From the IMG/VR virus record IMGVR_UViG_3300006879_000538, positions 1 through 4,408 of that record: a stretch of 4,408 bases of DNA. One strand, given 5' to 3'. The notes beneath the pieces were generated by a model. That model was not told the origin of the DNA. It saw nothing but the letters and a program-made list of their open reading frames with translations, and did no database searches. The translations under genes and the position numbers were made by a program. Positions 1 through 4,408 of the stretch are shown in pieces (the first letter of the stretch is position 1; every line of letters starts with the position of its first letter). The DNA is from a virus. Lineage: Duplodnaviria; Heunggongvirae; Uroviricota; Caudoviricetes.

Positions 1-1166
1 GTACAGGACGCAGATTCGTTGTATCTGATATCAATGTTTGATGACGACAAAGCCCCCGGGGATTTCCCAATCGTCAGTTCCTGAATATCGTAATAGCGTG
101 CATTCCCGCCACTCACCACGCCAAGATTCGCCGGTGAGTAAATGCGACTTAAAAGGACCGAATCACCAATCATCAGACTATTGATATAGTCGGAAATAGC
201 CTGCTGGATCTGCTGCCCTATCTGTGAGGTATAACCCGTAAAAACTTTTAATTTAATCCGGGCATAAACAGGTACATCACTGGAACGCGAGAATTTGATT
301 ACATGGGGATTGCCGTATTTATCCGGAACCGTAACGGATGTTGTACCGTGAGTGGCTGTCCCCTGGCCTTTATTCCCTCTGATAGCCTGAGCAATATCCG
401 TCACATCACCGCCATCCACAATTACAGCAACAGAGTGTGGCGGTAACCCATTACCGTCCTCCGAACCAGTATCGTTTTCATAGAGTTTGTGGCGGGTTAC
501 ACCGGTAACATTAGAAACAGCACCATCCAGTGCTTCAAATGGGGTTATTGATGGCAACGCAACACTTTGCGACTGGCGGATACGTAACTCAGCATCAGTT
601 TCTGCCGGAGAGCCAACAGTAGCCGCAGCAGGATTAGTTACCGAAACCCAGCCACGGGTTGGCGTATTAATTTCAGTGATAGTTCCAGCCAGCGCCGCCA
701 CTGCACCACTGACGGAACATGTTGCGGTCGCCATCACTGTACCATCCACGCCGACCACCACTGAAGCAGGCAAACGCCATATCACATTATTACTGTCTTT
801 CACGCTGCCATTAATGATGGTTGTTCCGGCAGTTCCTGTAAGAAGCAAATCAACCGTAGAGTTCGTCGCGCCTTTACGTGAAATACCATTTATTTTCACG
901 TTACTGGTCAGTGCAGCCCCATAGCCGGTTGCCGGTGAAAAACAGTTGTAGACAGTTATCGCCGTATTATTGGCATCATGAATCGCCAGCGCCATCAGAG
1001 CCACCATCTGGCCGTCTTTGCTGTCCGGTTCGAGGTAGGCATCACTGCCATAAATCTGCTGAAAATAGCTAATCAGGGTGCTGAGTATCGTCTGATAATC
1101 AGGCGCACTGATCCCCTCCGCGGTTACCTTTGCAGATAAACCGAGAGAATCAAGGTTCAGAGCCAT
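1..1166 (-). CDS. Baseplate J-like protein (Mu gp47 / P2 gpJ family), 3' end truncated by window edge
   Basis: ATG at 1166..1164 overlaps the stop of the upstream gene (TAATG); GGAGG lies 4-5 nt upstream. I hand-translated the frame from 1166 toward position 1 (about 388 codons, beginning MALNLDSLGLSAKVTAEGISAPDYQTILSTLISYFQQIYG) and found no stop. Family call is from position directly after V-like and GP46-like genes plus general sequence character, not from a search. Confidence 0.6.
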   Translation of the reverse strand, partial: MALNLDSLGLSAKVTAEGISAPDYQTILSTLISYFQQIYGSDAYLEPDSKDGQMVALMALAIHDANNTAITVYNCFSPATGYGAALTSNVKINGISRKGATNSTVDLLLTGTAGTTIINGSVKDSNNVIWRLPASVVVGVDGTVMATATCSVSGAVAALAGTITEINTPTRGWVSVTNPAAATVGSPAETDAELRIRQSQSVALPSITPFEALDGAVSNVTGVTRHKLYENDTGSEDGNGLPPHSVAVIVDGGDVTDIAQAIRGNKGQGTATHGTTSVTVPDKYGNPHVIKFSRSSDVPVYARIKLKVFTGYTSQIGQQIQQAISDYINSLMIGDSVLLSRIYSPANLGVVSGGNARYYDIQELTIGKSPGALSSSNIDIRYNESASC

Positions 1167-1519
1167 TACGCCTCCGATGTAACAGTCGTTATTCCATAAA
1201 GAGTGTCGATTTCAGCGGAAAACATGACACGTCGGGTCGTGGTATCCAGCGTCGTATTGAAAGAGAGGATTGATTTAACGCCCCGCGTTTCGAGGATGCG
1301 CTTACGGATCGCCAGGTTGTAGGTTTCCGGCTTCTGCTTACCGAGTACGGACTGGATCCACGGAGTCCCCTCGGTGGTGTCGAGAAACCATTGCCCATAC
1401 CACAATTCGAATCGCGTTTTTACCGCCTGCGCCACGGCCTCCGGTGAGTTAATCAGCCAGGTGTCATCACCGCTGCCAAAGGTGTAATCGCCATCGGCGT
1501 CTTCACGTCTGTATCGCAT
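1166..1519 (-). CDS. Phage GP46-family small baseplate protein (gp25/gpW-like wedge component), 117 aa
   Basis: ORF in the track (MRYRREDADGDYTFGSGDDTWLINSPEAV...). Its ATG overlaps the stop of the V-like gene (ATGA at 1517..1520) and its stop overlaps the J-like start. Size and position between V-like and J-like genes match the Mu gp45-gp46-gp47 arrangement. Confidence 0.65.
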   Translation of the reverse strand: MRYRREDADGDYTFGSGDDTWLINSPEAVAQAVKTRFELWYGQWFLDTTEGTPWIQSVLGKQKPETYNLAIRKRILETRGVKSILSFNTTLDTTTRRVMFSAEIDTLYGITTVTSEA

Positions 1520-2271
1520 CAGTTTACTCCGTCGGTATTGCTTCCACCGCGCTGAACACCACCATGAGTGTGCGTATCATCGATTGGCTTGCCGTTAGCC
1601 TTCACGCTACCCAAAAACTCAACAGCACCAGTAATTTTTGAAGCCACACCAGAAACAACAGACCCCACCATGCCCCCCATCCAGGTTAACAGGCCATGAA
1701 TGGTTACTTTCTCAGAAAAATCAGCCAGAGGGGCAACCACATCAAGGCCCCCCGGAGCAACAATTTTAATTTTCCCGGTATCAGGATTAAGCTCAAAATA
1801 GGTGCTGCCATCGTCACTACGCAACTGTGTGGCACTGGTATTAATACCGCTAATCTTCCTAGCCTGCGACTGGGGACCGACAATACAAAACGCATCCGAT
1901 AAATCATGCATTCTGTCATCAACAGGCTCCTGTATCCCGCCGTTCTGCCACCAGAAATCAATACAACGATCGGCAAAAACGACAAGACACTCATCCCCGG
2001 CTTTTACCGGAAAAGTCAACGTACAGCCTCCGCCGCGCGGAAATACCACCGGCACATCCACCAGTAGCGGGTAATTTTTGGTTACGCGGTTGCCGTCGTT
2101 GTCGGTTTCAACCGAACGAATAGCAGGCTGCACAACCGCCGTCACCGCGTCAGGATCGAATGACTGAACGATGCCAGGCAAAGCGACGCGGATCTGGTTC
2201 TTTGTGGTTTCCCGCTCGGATTTGAATGTTTCGGCAAGGTCGCCGCTGCGGGTCTGGTCAGATACTGCCAT
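1519..2271 (-). CDS. Baseplate assembly protein V-like / tail spike (Mu gp45-like), 250 aa
   Basis: ORF in the track. The segment PLLVDVPVVFPRGGGCTLTFPVKAGDECLVVFADRCIDFWWQNGG resembles the N-terminal OB-fold region of gpV-family spike proteins, and the C-terminal part is Gly-rich. GGAG lies about 7 nt upstream of the ATG at 2271. Synteny with the GP46-like and J-like genes supports the call. Confidence 0.7.
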   Translation of the reverse strand: MAVSDQTRSGDLAETFKSERETTKNQIRVALPGIVQSFDPDAVTAVVQPAIRSVETDNDGNRVTKNYPLLVDVPVVFPRGGGCTLTFPVKAGDECLVVFADRCIDFWWQNGGIQEPVDDRMHDLSDAFCIVGPQSQARKISGINTSATQLRSDDGSTYFELNPDTGKIKIVAPGGLDVVAPLADFSEKVTIHGLLTWMGGMVGSVVSGVASKITGAVEFLGSVKANGKPIDDTHTHGGVQRGGSNTDGVN

Positions 2272-2290: not shown

Positions 2291-2314
2291 AAAAAACCCG
2301 CCGGATGGCGGGTT
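2291..2314 (-). terminator. Rho-independent terminator for minus-strand transcription, downstream of the HEPN gene
   Basis: Inverted repeat aacccgcc (2295-2302), loop ggat, ggcgggtt (2307-2314) on the plus strand. On the minus strand the GC-rich stem is followed directly by a T6 run (complement of a-run 2291-2296). It sits 18 nt after the HEPN stop (2332) and about 20 nt before the V-like start (2271). Confidence 0.6.
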
Positions 2315-2331
2315 CGTAAATAAACTTTTTG

Positions 2332-2712
2332 CTAGGCTACTTGGGATTTCATTTCTGCTATTTTGTCCAACATCTTGTTCACCACTGCAATAGATGAACT
2401 TGCTTCAGTTTGCAAAATAGTCTCTGTTAGATCGTAGTCCGCGCGCTTACGCTTCATTTTTTGCTGTTTGAGAACTGCCCCCAACTGGATAAGAGACATT
2501 AACTCATAAGGTTCATCCTTCCGCCTTGCATCCGAAATAAGATATTGAACAACTCCATCATGTGTTGTCGGCGGGCAACACGTCAAAAGGCCACATGTTT
2601 CATGGTAGAACGCATAGTATGCCCGTGAAATAGCACTTCTGAAACCAGACTCAATACCAGTGTCTAAACATGCACGGGATGCGTCAATGAACTCTTTTCC
2701 TTGGATACTCAT
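2332..2712 (-). CDS. HEPN-domain protein, putative RNase toxin/effector, 126 aa
   Basis: ORF in the track. Residues 29-58 (SRAYYAFYHETCGLLTCCPPTTHDGVVQYL) match the pattern I recall for classical HEPN proteins: an R-x6-H motif inside an RAYYA.FH helix followed by a conserved H.GV segment. The motif R30-H37 is encoded at 2602..2625 (RC = CGGGCATACTATGCGTTCTACCAT). Start ATG overlaps the stop of the upstream gene by 4 nt (ATGA). Confidence 0.7.
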   Translation of the reverse strand: MSIQGKEFIDASRACLDTGIESGFRSAISRAYYAFYHETCGLLTCCPPTTHDGVVQYLISDARRKDEPYELMSLIQLGAVLKQQKMKRKRADYDLTETILQTEASSSIAVVNKMLDKIAEMKSQVA

Positions 2713-3482
2713 ATCGTGAAGTGAATCTCCTGCCGATTACGCCCGCGGAACCAGGCCGTCACATTCTTTCCAGCGAAGATCTCATTCATTGCAATTTCAG
2801 TAGCAACGTCAATATCCATATCGGAAAGCATATCGGCATCCTCACATAAAACATCACAAACTATGCCAGCATCCCCATCCGGGCTTGTGACATAGTCATG
2901 AGAAATAGCTAAAACACCATAATTCTTAGCGACATTAGTAATTGTTCTGGAAAGAAGATTTATCTCATTCGTGCTTAAATCAGTCACACTTATGAATGTA
3001 TCTAATGCCCGTTTTTTTTCCATGATATCTGACTCCATGCTTTCTCGCTCGCTCTCACTTCCGATCATAGACAGAGCTTTTCGAGCAAAAAAGAGTGATA
3101 GTTCACCATCGCCGTCAGCATAGGCTGCATTCCTTGCTCGTATGCACAAAGCAAGGCTGGTAATTTCCCGAGCTAACCTCACAGCCTCTTCTCGGTACAA
3201 TTCATACTGTCCAGTATGACTGAGGTAAGAAAGATAATTTCTGGCTACTGTTTCGTCACGGTATGCAACTGCCTCCTGAAAAAAACCGACAGCTTCAACA
3301 TGTTGATGCGCAGCTCCATAAGCCAGAGCCAACACCATCAACTTAACTGGCTCATCAGGGATTTTGCCTGCTTCAGAGACAACTCGCTTTAGCGTAAAAG
3401 CATCCAGTTGCTGCCCTTCATCAATACGTGAAGTAAGCATCTCAAGCGTTTCATTCAGTTTGCTATACAGTGCAAGTGACAT
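2709..3482 (-). CDS. Hypothetical protein, 257 aa, operon partner of the HEPN gene (candidate antitoxin/sensor)
   Basis: ORF in the track. AAGGAGG lies 6 nt upstream of the ATG at 3482..3480. The N-terminal half (about residues 45-140) looks alpha-helical and possibly TPR-like (LALAYGAAHQHVEAVGFFQEAVAY...YLSYLSHTGQYELYREEAV). The C-terminal region is acidic (residues 202-229, DGDAGIVCDVLCEDADMLSDMDIDVATE). I see no Walker A motif and no clear GS...DxD nucleotidyltransferase signature. Confidence 0.65.
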   Translation of the reverse strand: MSLALYSKLNETLEMLTSRIDEGQQLDAFTLKRVVSEAGKIPDEPVKLMVLALAYGAAHQHVEAVGFFQEAVAYRDETVARNYLSYLSHTGQYELYREEAVRLAREITSLALCIRARNAAYADGDGELSLFFARKALSMIGSESERESMESDIMEKKRALDTFISVTDLSTNEINLLSRTITNVAKNYGVLAISHDYVTSPDGDAGIVCDVLCEDADMLSDMDIDVATEIAMNEIFAGKNVTAWFRGRNRQEIHFTI

Positions 3483-3533
3483 TAATCATCCTCCTTAACG
3501 GAGGAATTTATCATTGGAAGGCATCATCAACAA
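3483..3533 (-). promoter_or_regulatory. Putative sigma70-type promoter, palindromic element and SD for the two-gene operon
   Basis: Read on the minus strand: candidate -35 TTGTTG (3533..3528), 17-nt spacer, TG-extended -10 TAAATT (3510..3505), then the perfect palindrome TCCTCC-GTTAA-GGAGGA (3505..3489) whose downstream arm is the SD, then the ATG at 3482. Promoter hexamers are a modest match to consensus. Confidence 0.35.
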
Positions 3534-3680
3534 CCTGTTGTTTTATTCATTAATCCATATTCTAGACTAATGCTTTGCTCTTTTCTAAGGAGAGAAAGGA
3601 GAACTGGTTAAAATTTCTTACTCTCACCCAGCCACTTTTTTACAAGGGAAAGATTCGATGATTTTCGGCGCATCCATGAC

Positions 3681-4157
3681 TTAATAACCTTGAGATTTAG
3701 CAACGCGAATACCGGCCGCCATCCCATTGAAATCCCATGCGTTTTTATGGGCAATAGGATTACGTGTGTTGAAGGCATAGCGCTGGCCCATTTTCCATGC
3801 TGTATCGCTAACAGACTTATCTTGAGAGAGGTTTACCCACTCCTTTATGCCTTTGTAAACATAGGACTTACAATCATCCGTAGTTCCTTTCCGATTGGTG
3901 TAGGCATCCAGATCTTCGCATTCTTGAAAGGAGTTGCTGACTATATCCGCGAAATCATCAATGGTCATGGCGAATCTGCGACCATTCATAGCGAAAAAAG
4001 GAGTAGCAGAGGCGTAATGTTGCCACTGCGTAAACTTTTGCTGATCCATTAAATCAACAGCCATTTTTTCATACTTCCCAGGAGCGGATAATCCCGACAT
4101 CGGAACAAGTAAACTTATTGCAATAAAAATGGCTTTCTTATTCAATCTTATCCCCAC
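3681..4157 (-). CDS. Hypothetical secreted/periplasmic protein with N-terminal signal peptide (start codon uncertain: GTG 4157 or TTG 4145; track ATG 4226 less likely)
   Basis: The track ORF (3681..4226) contains an internal signal-peptide-like segment, LNKKAIFIAISLLVPMSGLSA-PGK, which only makes sense at an N-terminus. GTG at 4157..4155 lies 10 nt after AAGGAG (4173..4168); TTG at 4145..4143 is the alternative. The predicted mature protein has two Cys (QECEDL..., ...DDCKSY), compatible with a periplasmic disulfide. I recognise no family. Confidence 0.55.
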   Translation of the reverse strand: MGIRLNKKAIFIAISLLVPMSGLSAPGKYEKMAVDLMDQQKFTQWQHYASATPFFAMNGRRFAMTIDDFADIVSNSFQECEDLDAYTNRKGTTDDCKSYVYKGIKEWVNLSQDKSVSDTAWKMGQRYAFNTRNPIAHKNAWDFNGMAAGIRVAKSQGY

Positions 4158-4408
4158 CGATTCATTGCTCCTTGACTTTGAAGATCCGCCGCGCCACGCG
4201 CTTGGCACATCATATCCATGTACCACGCCTGGCCCCTTGTGTCACCAGTGTACATAATCCCGCGCACAATATAAACGCCATCCGTTGCGATGCTGGCAGG
4301 TTGTGCTGTGGTGCCGCTGAGCGTGATATTACCGTCCGTGTTCTGGTCGGTGATCTGACCACCAGCCATAGCGATATCGTTGTTCGACAACGCGGCGCGA
4401 TATACAGA
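4148..4408 (-). CDS. C-terminal fragment of an upstream phage tail/baseplate gene (possibly the baseplate hub, Mu gp44 / P2 gpD-like, by synteny), 5' end beyond window
   Basis: The minus-strand frame is open from the window edge (4408) to TAA at 4150..4148 (…SNNDIAMAGGQITDQNTDGNITLSGTTAQPASIATDGVYIVRGIMYTGDTRGQAWYMDMMCQARG…). The track's TTG start at 4390 is probably internal. Functional call rests only on position upstream of the V-like gene. Confidence 0.4.
   Translation of the reverse strand, partial: SVYRAALSNNDIAMAGGQITDQNTDGNITLSGTTAQPASIATDGVYIVRGIMYTGDTRGQAWYMDMMCQARGAADLQSQGAMNRWG

What the first reader, a model, noticed from the sequence alone, without database searches (positions are those of the whole stretch)
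2602..2625. Intact R-x6-H catalytic motif (RAYYAFYH) in the 126-aa protein
The minus-strand codons at 2625..2602 encode R30-A-Y-Y-A-F-Y-H37. This matches the RAYYA.FH signature that, as I recall it, carries the Rx4-6H motif in classical HEPN proteins, and it is followed by a conserved-looking T-H-D-G-V-V segment. Both the Arg and the His are retained, which suggests an active RNase rather than a degenerate HEPN.
Basis: partly seen in the sequence, partly recalled or inferred. Interest (0 to 1): 0.6.

Follow-up and report, generated by a model that had tools for sequence, protein, structure and literature searches.

The report
Prophage HEPN gene with TPR partner
The 126-residue protein is a genuine HEPN-fold protein, but RAYYAFYH is not its catalytic motif; it belongs to an unnamed two-gene prophage cassette that probably acts as a toxin–antitoxin or anti-phage module.

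Summary
Minus-strand codons 2625..2602 encode R30-AYYAFY-H37, and THDGVV follows at residues 50-55.

- **Motif assignment fails.** R30 and H37 lie in core helix 2. The Rx4-6H motif sits at the end of helix 3, which here reads R88-K-R-A-D92-Y93, with the Arg kept and no His.
All of these are near-invariant in 148 diverse relatives. So are R30 and H37, though each is replaced in one solved relative.
- **The bare pattern is weak evidence.** Rx4-6H appears in 28% of shuffles.

The gene overlaps (ATGA) an upstream 257-residue acidic protein with a TPR-like domain and a small α/β domain. It is not a nucleotidyltransferase. This partner is present in 76 of 76 assessable viral loci. The pair occupies variable prophage slots and matches no Pfam, NCBIfam or PADLOC model.

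The parts
2332..2712 (-). Gene for the 126-aa AF0298-like (HEPN-T type) HEPN protein, the presumed effector or toxin
2602..2625 (-). The finding: R30-AYYAFY-H37, a conserved signature inside core helix 2; not the Rx4-6H motif
   Evidence: Sequence. Helix 21-42. R30 in 141/148 and H37 in 146/148 relatives. R30 is T in AF0298 and H37 is Y in 9xbd.
2638..2652 (-). E21-S-G-F-R25, the Ex3[KR] motif of HEPN domains at the start of helix 2
   Evidence: E21 in 147/148 and R25 in 148/148 relatives. Motif definition and its proximity to the active site come from PMC3710099.
2560..2562 (-). [quoted passage not shown]
   Evidence: H51 in 145/148 relatives. Aligns with the His of SSHSAV (9xbd) and KTHRG (AF0298). 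Described for AF0298-like HEPN-T and AbiV in PMC3710099.
2434..2451 (-). R88-K-R-A-D92-Y93 at the C-terminal end of helix 3: the position homologous to Rx4-6H, with Arg kept and His replaced (R-x3-D-Y)
   Evidence: R88 148/148, D92 147/148, Y93 148/148. Aligns with RNRSDYDL and REESDYGI. The residue after R88 is N, K or H in relatives, as expected after the motif Arg. PMC3710099 Table 1 states that D replaces the conserved H in HEPN-T.
2709..3482 (-). Gene for the 257-aa acidic partner (TPR-like helical repeats 1-140, long helices, C-terminal β-β-α-β domain 188-257); presumed antitoxin or sensor. Its stop overlaps the HEPN start (ATGA).
2294..2315 (-). Intrinsic-terminator-like hairpin with a T-run directly after the HEPN stop and before the spike gene; it also marks one edge of the variable region
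   Evidence: Terminator scan: 9-bp stem, 6 GC pairs. Fold -19.3 kcal/mol, z -4.2, 0 of 200 shuffles as stable. Homology to phage vB_EcoM-689R2 ends at 2314.
3483..3680 (-). Intergenic leader of the cassette: AAGGAGG Shine-Dalgarno 8 nt before the ATG, held in a hairpin (3505..3489), and a weak sigma-70-like site (3587..3559)
   Evidence: Sequence. Promoter-like hit is not above the shuffle expectation. Hairpin -12.4 kcal/mol, z -2.5. Function is inferred only.

Best explanation
**What it is.** The 126-aa protein is a small stand-alone HEPN domain of the AF0298-like (HEPN-T, UPF0332) type. Its likely active site is not R30/H37. It is the non-canonical constellation proposed for this type:
- R88, the Arg of the degenerate Rx4-6H position at the end of helix 3, here R-x3-D92-Y93.
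- The E21-x3-R25 motif at the start of helix 2.

**R30 and H37.** They form a second conserved stripe on one face of helix 2. They probably serve structure, dimerisation or substrate binding, though a supporting catalytic role is not excluded.

**The cassette.** The gene is the distal half of a two-gene unit. The proximal gene encodes an acidic 257-aa protein with a TPR-like domain and a small α/β domain. The two genes overlap (ATGA). The unit has its own terminator and sits in a variable slot between the baseplate-hub and spike genes of a prophage. It also occurs in other prophage accessory slots.

**Most likely mechanism (inferred, not shown).** This is a toxin-antitoxin-like or abortive-infection module. 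The HEPN protein, as a dimer, would be a metal-independent RNase. The partner would hold it inactive. Loss of the partner, or a phage protein binding its TPR domain, would release the RNase.
For: - **Motif placement.** The literature places the motif at the end of helix 3, describes the Ex3[KR] motif, and notes D in place of H plus an alternative His from the insert in AF0298-like HEPN-T. The model's helix boundaries come and the residue-level alignments.
- **Conservation.** E21, R25, H51, R88, D92 and Y93 are each kept in at least 145 of 148 diverse relatives. The residue after R88 is N, K or H.
- **Obligate pairing.**
  - A homologous partner lies directly upstream in 76 of 79 IMG/VR loci; the remaining 3 are truncated.
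  - The same holds in the 5 Enterobacterales genome loci and in the Klebsiella, Pantoea and Xenorhabdus loci.
  - It also holds in the metagenomic, lambdoid-prophage and P2-like loci L008-L010; homology of the partners in L003, L008, L009 and L010 was tested with the partner HMM.
- **Accessory, mobile character.**
  - The closely related phage vB_EcoM-689R2 carries different genes in the same slot.
  - The cassette is in 2 of 5426 complete E. coli genomes.
  - Slots used include hub-spike (56 of 77 assessable loci), after the cI repressor, the P2 ogr-to-gpA region and near tail-fibre chaperones.
- **Moron-like signals.** Terminator hairpin and ATGA overlap.
- **Partner properties.** Acidic, pI 4.7.
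Against: - No experiment exists: neither RNase activity, toxicity, neutralisation nor defence has been shown for any member.
- The motif His is absent. The alternative active site (H51 + R88) is a 2013 structural proposal, never tested biochemically for this family as far as I could find.
Distances between R30, H37, H51, R88 and E21, and the dimer geometry, were therefore not measured. Placing E21, R25, H51, R88 and Y93 at one pole is inferred from helix boundaries and up-down topology only.
- The HEPN protein is not basic (pI 6.7).
- PADLOC has no model and no paper was found, so the defence role rests on context alone.
- The promoter-like site is no better than chance.
- R30 and H37 are as conserved within this family as the proposed catalytic residues.
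Confidence: 0.6

Rival explanations
1. One reading: R30-x6-H37 is the catalytic Rx4-6H motif of a classical HEPN RNase.
For: The pattern fits Rx6H. Both residues are near-invariant in the family: 141 and 146 of 148. On a helix, i and i+7 lie on the same face.
Against: - The pattern occurs in 28% of shuffles.
- It lies in helix 2, whereas the motif lies at the end of helix 3.
- Profile alignments put the motif Arg at R88.
- R30 is Thr in AF0298 and H37 is Tyr in 9xbd.
- The literature names the insert His (H51 here), not the helix-2 His, as the alternative catalytic His.
Confidence: 0.1
2. The HEPN domain is catalytically inert and acts as a binding or adaptor module. The pair then serves another prophage function, such as regulation, or a virion or baseplate assembly accessory suggested by its place between the hub and spike genes.
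For: The canonical His is missing. Many HEPN domains are non-catalytic. 56 of 77 assessable viral loci sit just upstream of a spike gene.
Against: - Eight polar residues are near-invariant across relatives at 50% identity or less, which is unusual for a mere scaffold.
- PMC3710099 predicts inactivity only for HEPN domains that lack conserved charged or polar residues.
- The pair is absent from closely related phages with the same baseplate genes.
- It also occurs next to cI, in the P2 ogr-to-gpA region and in a non-phage neighbourhood.
- A terminator separates it from the spike gene.
Confidence: 0.15
3. It is an ordinary type VII HEPN-MNT (HepT/MntA) toxin-antitoxin pair, in which the upstream protein AMPylates a Tyr next to the motif.
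For: The closest solved relatives belong to the MNT-associated HEPN-T group. Y93 is invariant. The PDB pair 9xbd/9xbc differs by Y to F at the equivalent position, which suggests that Tyr matters in a relative.
Against: - The partner has no nucleotidyltransferase signal in Pfam or NCBIfam.
- At 257 aa the partner is about twice the size of an MNT.
- No upstream partner in Pseudomonas or archaeal relatives hits any Pfam family either.
Confidence: 0.04
4. The cassette works for the phage during lytic growth, as a counter-defence or host-takeover RNase, rather than protecting the lysogen.
For: It is embedded in the late tail operon on the same strand. Its own promoter is not demonstrated.
Against: - A strong terminator sits directly after it inside the operon.
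- A two-gene toxin plus neutraliser layout is conserved.
- It also occurs directly after the cI repressor gene, a slot typical of genes expressed in the lysogen.
- It is nearly absent from sequenced phage isolates: 1 of 50,697 records.
Confidence: 0.1

Closest known systems
AF0298 of Archaeoglobus fulgidus (PDB 2hsb; UPF0332, HEPN-T clade, Pfam PF05168)
   Different: Only 16-18% identity. The window protein does not reach the PF05168 threshold. AF0298 has Thr at R30. The HEPN-T group is typically linked or fused to MNT nucleotidyltransferases; this family has a TPR-like partner instead.
PDB 9xbd / 9xbc 'HEPN domain-containing protein' (125 / 131 aa; no paper found)
   Same: Best sequence-profile match (E 1e-11). 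Shares SRAYYA, SSH and RNRSDYDL, equivalent to R30, H51 and R88-D92-Y93.
   Different: Tyr at the H37 position. 9xbc carries F at the Y93 position. Its organism, partner and function are unknown to me.
HepT/MntA type VII toxin-antitoxin systems (e.g. SO_3166/SO_3165, PDB 5yep; 7ae2)
   Different: HepT has the canonical Rx4HxY motif and an MNT antitoxin that AMPylates the Tyr (PMC7641770 abstract). Here there is no motif His and no NTase partner.
AbiV of Lactococcus (HEPN RNase, type III toxin-antitoxin; PDB 9bj7)
   Same: Listed by Anantharaman et al. as having an alternative conserved His at the same position as HEPN-T, and possibly related. It is an anti-phage Abi, and AF0298 is among its closest structural homologues.
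   Different: AbiV is 201 aa. Its experimentally important residues are R91 and H97 in 91-RNHKSKH-97, and its antitoxin is an RNA. No repeats or Rfam match were found here, and Foldseek similarity is weak.
HepS, the solo HEPN anticodon nuclease of the Gifsy-1 prophage
   Same: A prophage-encoded HEPN defence gene in an accessory slot, activated by a phage tail protein. This is a functional analogy.
HEPN families with TPR or Sel1 partners (LA2681, AbiU2; Anantharaman et al. 2013, Table 1)
   Same: A HEPN gene in an operon with a helical-repeat protein.
   Different: Those families keep the canonical Rx4-6H motif and are distinct sequence families. No homology was tested or shown here.

Membership tests
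HEPN superfamily | [quoted passage not shown] | tested here: met
HEPN superfamily | [quoted passage not shown] | tested here: not met
   The homologous segment is R88-K-R-A-D-Y93-D-L, with no His within 4-6 residues of R88. The only Rx4-6H match (R30..H37) is in helix 2. Loss of the His is documented for the HEPN-T/AF0298 type.
HEPN superfamily | Polar residue immediately after the motif Arg | tested here: met
   K89 here; N (21), K (15) or H (9) among the 46 sequences aligned (45 distinct viral-locus proteins plus the window protein). Criterion.
HEPN superfamily | N-terminal acidic residue within an Ex3[KR] motif | tested here: met
   E21-S-G-F-R25; E21 in 147/148 and R25 in 148/148 relatives. 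Criterion.
HEPN-T / UPF0332 (Pfam PF05168; AF0298-like) | Significant sequence-profile relationship to family members | tested here: met
   Family profile A3 versus PDB: 2hsb E 6.2e-8, 9xbd E 1.3e-11.
HEPN-T / UPF0332 (Pfam PF05168; AF0298-like) | Score above the Pfam PF05168 gathering threshold (22 bits) | tested here: not met
   No hit for the window protein. Relatives score 14-17 bits, full-length and colinear.
HEPN-T / UPF0332 (Pfam PF05168; AF0298-like) | Asp in place of the motif His, plus an alternative conserved His from the helix 2-3 insert | tested here: met
   D92 in 147/148 and H51 in 145/148 relatives. H51 aligns with the insert His of 2hsb and 9xbd. Feature described.
HEPN-T / UPF0332 (Pfam PF05168; AF0298-like) | Adjacent or fused MNT nucleotidyltransferase | tested here: not met
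   The upstream partner is a TPR-like plus α/β protein with no NTase signal. The same holds for partners of distant relatives.
[quoted passage not shown] | Rx4HxY motif with a Tyr AMPylated by the MNT antitoxin | tested here: not met
   No His in the motif and no MNT partner. Modification of Y93 cannot be tested here.
Catalytically active HEPN RNase | Metal-independent RNA cleavage dependent on the active-site Arg and His | not testable with these tools
   Only conservation of candidate residues could be shown.
Catalytically active HEPN RNase | Dimer that juxtaposes two active-site motifs | not tested
Known anti-phage defence systems (PADLOC-DB v2.0.0) | Match to any system-protein model | tested here: not met
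   No hits at E up to 1 for either protein. Nothing in the DefensePredictor supplements as held (several files stored truncated) or in a full-text search for sequence strings or accessions.

The most novel reading that the evidence does not exclude
The pair defines an undescribed two-component prophage immunity or addiction system. Its effector is a HEPN RNase that has lost the canonical motif His and uses an insert His (H51) with R88. Its regulator is a new TPR plus α/β protein in place of the usual MNT nucleotidyltransferase. The cassette sits preferentially between baseplate-hub and spike genes and hops to other prophage hotspots.
Probability: 0.4. Interest if true: 0.6.

Novelty: new variant of a known kind. 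Interest (0 to 1): 0.45.

Why it matters
- **Mutagenesis targets.** R88, H51, E21, R25, D92 and Y93 are the informative ones.
- **An untested 2013 proposal.** This family is a compact, abundant test case for the idea that AF0298-like HEPN domains use an alternative active site. The exact protein occurs on about 700 contigs and there are about 3600 family clusters.
- **A gap in defence catalogues.** The strict pairing with a non-MNT partner, and the repeated capture in prophage variable slots, mark a likely toxin-antitoxin or anti-phage module that Pfam, NCBIfam and PADLOC do not recognise.

Tried and rejected
- **MNT or nucleotidyltransferase partner: rejected**.
- **RNA (type III) antitoxin as in AbiV:** no tandem repeats and no Rfam match in the window.
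- **Membership of a known defence system:** no PADLOC hit.
- **Literature:**
  - No paper for 9xbd/9xbc.
  - No paper holding the protein accessions or sequence strings.
  - Nothing in the DefensePredictor supplements.
  - The Rousset 2022, NetFlax and P2/P4 hotspot papers do not describe this pair.
  - The Brenes & Laub 2025 prophage-defence paper is not in the library.
- **The search for related loci with the broad alignment A3** failed for lack of a conserved stretch; A1 was used instead.
- **Partner homology beyond Enterobacterales and Vibrio:**
  - Not significant for the cyanobacterial-like locus L013.
  - Not significant for the archaeal partners.
  - The Pseudomonas partners are not detected by the partner HMM. 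The weak profile-profile hit (E 0.0015, probability 17%) comes from an alignment that also holds the L010 and L013 partners.
  - For these lineages only 'same size, same position, no Pfam' can be said.
- **Conservation of R30, H37, R88 and D92 in the IMG/VR loci** is not used as evidence, because those loci were found with patterns containing these residues.
- **3D distances between candidate residues** could not be measured, because no coordinates are returned.

Full report
**1. The observation**

The minus-strand ORF 2332..2712 encodes a 126-aa protein. Reading the reverse strand, codons 2625-2623 (cgg) to 2604-2602 (cat) give R30-A-Y-Y-A-F-Y-H37, and T50-H51-D52-G53-V54-V55 follows. The coordinates and residues are therefore exactly as reported.

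The bare pattern R-x(4-6)-H is weak evidence: it appears in 28% of 20,000 composition-preserving shuffles of this protein. Conservation is what stands out. A profile search of 1.84 billion cluster representatives found 3629 relatives at E ≤ 1e-3. In an alignment of 148 of the best, R30 is kept in 141 and H37 in 146.

**2. Is it a HEPN protein? Yes**

- The protein alone hits nothing in Pfam, NCBIfam or PADLOC. It matches only PHROG 5176, of unknown function.
- A profile of 29 homologues hits PDB 9xbd and 9xbc ('HEPN domain-containing protein', E 9e-8) and 2hsb (AF0298, UPF0332, E 9e-4).
- A broader 62-sequence profile raises these to 1.3e-11 and 6.2e-8.
- A few relatives give sub-threshold but full-length colinear matches to PF05168.
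- The AlphaFold model is confident (pLDDT 91.8, pTM 0.85), with helices 5-17, 21-42, 51-59, 62-66, 71-93 and 101-125.
- Foldseek ranks 2hsb first (TM 0.73).

**3. Is RAYYAFYH the Rx4-6H motif? No**

Anantharaman et al. [quoted passage not shown] They note a polar residue after the Arg. They also describe a second conserved acidic residue, usually within an Ex3[KR] motif in the N-terminal part, lying near the motif in space.

[quoted passage not shown] The window protein maps onto this description as follows:

| Residues | Location | Role by homology | Kept in 148 relatives |
|---|---|---|---|
| R30..H37 | Inside helix 2 (21-42) | Helix-2 signature, not the motif | 141; 146 |
| R88-K-R-A-D92-Y93 | End of helix 3 (71-93) | Rx4-6H position, His replaced | 148; 147; 148 |
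| E21-S-G-F-R25 | Start of helix 2 | Ex3[KR] motif | 147; 148 |

- The R88-Y93 segment aligns with RNRSDYDL of 9xbd and REESDYGI of AF0298.
- H51 aligns with the His of SSHSAV (9xbd) and KTHRG (AF0298).
- The residue after R88 is N, K or H in relatives.
- In the two solved relatives, H51, R88, D92 and Y93 are all kept. R30 is Thr in AF0298 and H37 is Tyr in 9xbd.
- 9xbc differs from 9xbd by Phe at the Y93 position. This suggests the depositors regard that Tyr as functionally important. I found no paper.

Inference on geometry: with up-down topology, the start of helix 2 (E21, R25) and the end of helix 3 (R88-Y93) lie at the same pole. R30 is about 13 Å and H37 about 24 Å further along helix 2. 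By helical periodicity, R30, Y33 and H37 share one face, and E21, R25 and Y32 share another. I could not measure distances because model coordinates are not returned.

**4. Surroundings**

The HEPN start overlaps the stop of a 257-aa gene, 2709..3482, through an ATGA.

*The partner protein*
- It has no Pfam, PADLOC or NCBIfam match and belongs to PHROG 17809.
- Its model is confident (pLDDT 92.1). It has helical repeats over residues 1-140, two long helices, and a C-terminal β-β-α-β domain.
- It is acidic, pI 4.7 overall and 4.1 for the C-terminal domain. The HEPN protein has pI 6.7.

*Signals around the cassette*
- A strong terminator-like hairpin follows the HEPN stop, at 2315..2294 (-19.3 kcal/mol, z -4.2).
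- The partner gene has an AAGGAGG Shine-Dalgarno sequence, held in a small hairpin.
- A sigma-70-like site at 3587..3559 is no better than chance.
- There are no Rfam hits and no tandem repeats.

*Flanking genes*
- These are prophage baseplate genes: a gpV-like spike (1519..2271; PF18352 plus Apex), a gp25/W-like protein (1166..1519), and the C-terminus of the hub (4148..4390).

*Variability of the slot*
- Against the 97%-identical phage vB_EcoM-689R2, homology stops at 2314 and resumes at 4181. That phage carries other genes in this slot.
- The cassette DNA is in only 2 of 5426 complete E. coli genomes.
- The exact proteins nevertheless occur on about 700 contigs, with near-identical copies in Salmonella.
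- Only 1 of 50,697 deposited phage genomes encodes a relative.

**5. The pair is a unit**

- In 79 IMG/VR loci encoding relatives (35-100% identity), a protein matching the partner HMM ends within 120 nt of the HEPN start on the same strand in 76. The other 3 are cut by contig ends.
- The same layout holds in five Enterobacterales genomes and in Klebsiella, Pantoea and Xenorhabdus prophages.
- It also holds in a metagenomic contig, in a lambdoid prophage directly after the cI repressor gene, and in a P2-like prophage between ogr and gpA. The partners in L003, L008, L009 and L010 are homologous at E 2e-15, 1e-25, 4e-19 and 2e-8.
- 56 of 77 assessable viral loci have a spike gene within 400 nt downstream; 21 sit elsewhere.
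- In Pseudomonas, archaeal and one cyanobacterial-like relative, a Pfam-less gene of 185-324 aa occupies the same upstream position. Homology to the partner could not be shown.

**6. Mechanism**

*Shown:* the HEPN fold, the AF0298-like residue constellation, the obligatory TPR-like non-MNT partner, the gene overlap, the terminator, and the mobile accessory status in prophage variable slots.

*Inferred:*
- The HEPN protein is a metal-independent RNase using R88 with H51 and E21/R25, as proposed for this HEPN type.
- The acidic upstream partner neutralises it.
- The TPR domain may sense a phage protein or partner turnover, which would release the RNase. That would make the cassette a toxin-antitoxin or abortive-infection module of the lysogen.

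HepS and AbiV are experimentally supported analogies for prophage-borne or Abi HEPN RNases. Neither is a close relative.

They are weighed in the rival section.

**7. Novelty and verdict**

- The HEPN call is correct and unsurprising; UniRef already labels some members as HEPN.
- The catalytic-motif assignment is wrong in position and homology.
- The family has no Pfam, NCBIfam or PADLOC model, and no paper was found.
- Replacement of the MNT partner by a TPR plus α/β protein, and the strict pairing, make this a new variant of a known kind.
- Interest is moderate.

Noticed in passing
window 3681-4145 (minus): A third gene lies in the variable region. Starting at TTG 4145 with a GGGGA ribosome-binding site, it encodes 154 aa with a signal-peptide-like N-terminus (MNKKAIFIAISLLVPMSGLSA). 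It has no family hits. An 81%-identical 'hypothetical protein' is in Hafnia phage yong1. It differs from the gene in this position in E. coli PK8241 and in phage vB_EcoM-689R2.
   Followed up: partly
window 3489-3505 (minus-strand mRNA): The Shine-Dalgarno sequence of the 257-aa gene (AAGGAGG) is paired with an upstream UCCUCC in a hairpin (-12.4 kcal/mol, z -2.5). This may throttle translation of the partner and, through coupling, of the HEPN protein.
   Followed up: partly
window 1580-1806 (within the spike gene 1519-2271): Against the E. coli PK8241 prophage, the alignment breaks between 1579 and 1807, while both flanks match at 93-97%. The phage vB_EcoM-689R2 matches straight through. This is a mosaic patch in the C-terminal part of the gpV-like spike.
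   Followed up: no
PDB 9xbd vs 9xbc (closest sequence-profile matches): The two deposited 'HEPN domain-containing protein' chains differ by Tyr to Phe at the residue equivalent to Y93 (RNRSDYDL vs RNRSDFDL). Someone is apparently probing this Tyr in an AF0298-like HEPN. No paper was found.
   Followed up: partly
L026-L030 (Bathyarchaeia and Nitrosopumilus MAGs), upstream of the HEPN relatives: Archaeal relatives of the HEPN protein have a conserved Pfam-less upstream gene of 185-243 aa with a C-terminal LFTDPEYSDWIEPK...VTIDS block. Its order of secondary-structure elements looks like the β-β-α-β domain of the 257-aa partner, but profile comparison was not significant.
   Followed up: partly
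L001 6094-8126 (E. coli PK8241 prophage): The prophage carrying the cassette has a pinE-type invertase next to opposed tail-fibre and tail-fibre-assembly genes, that is, a host-range switching module. It is inserted near pphA/yebW.
   Followed up: no
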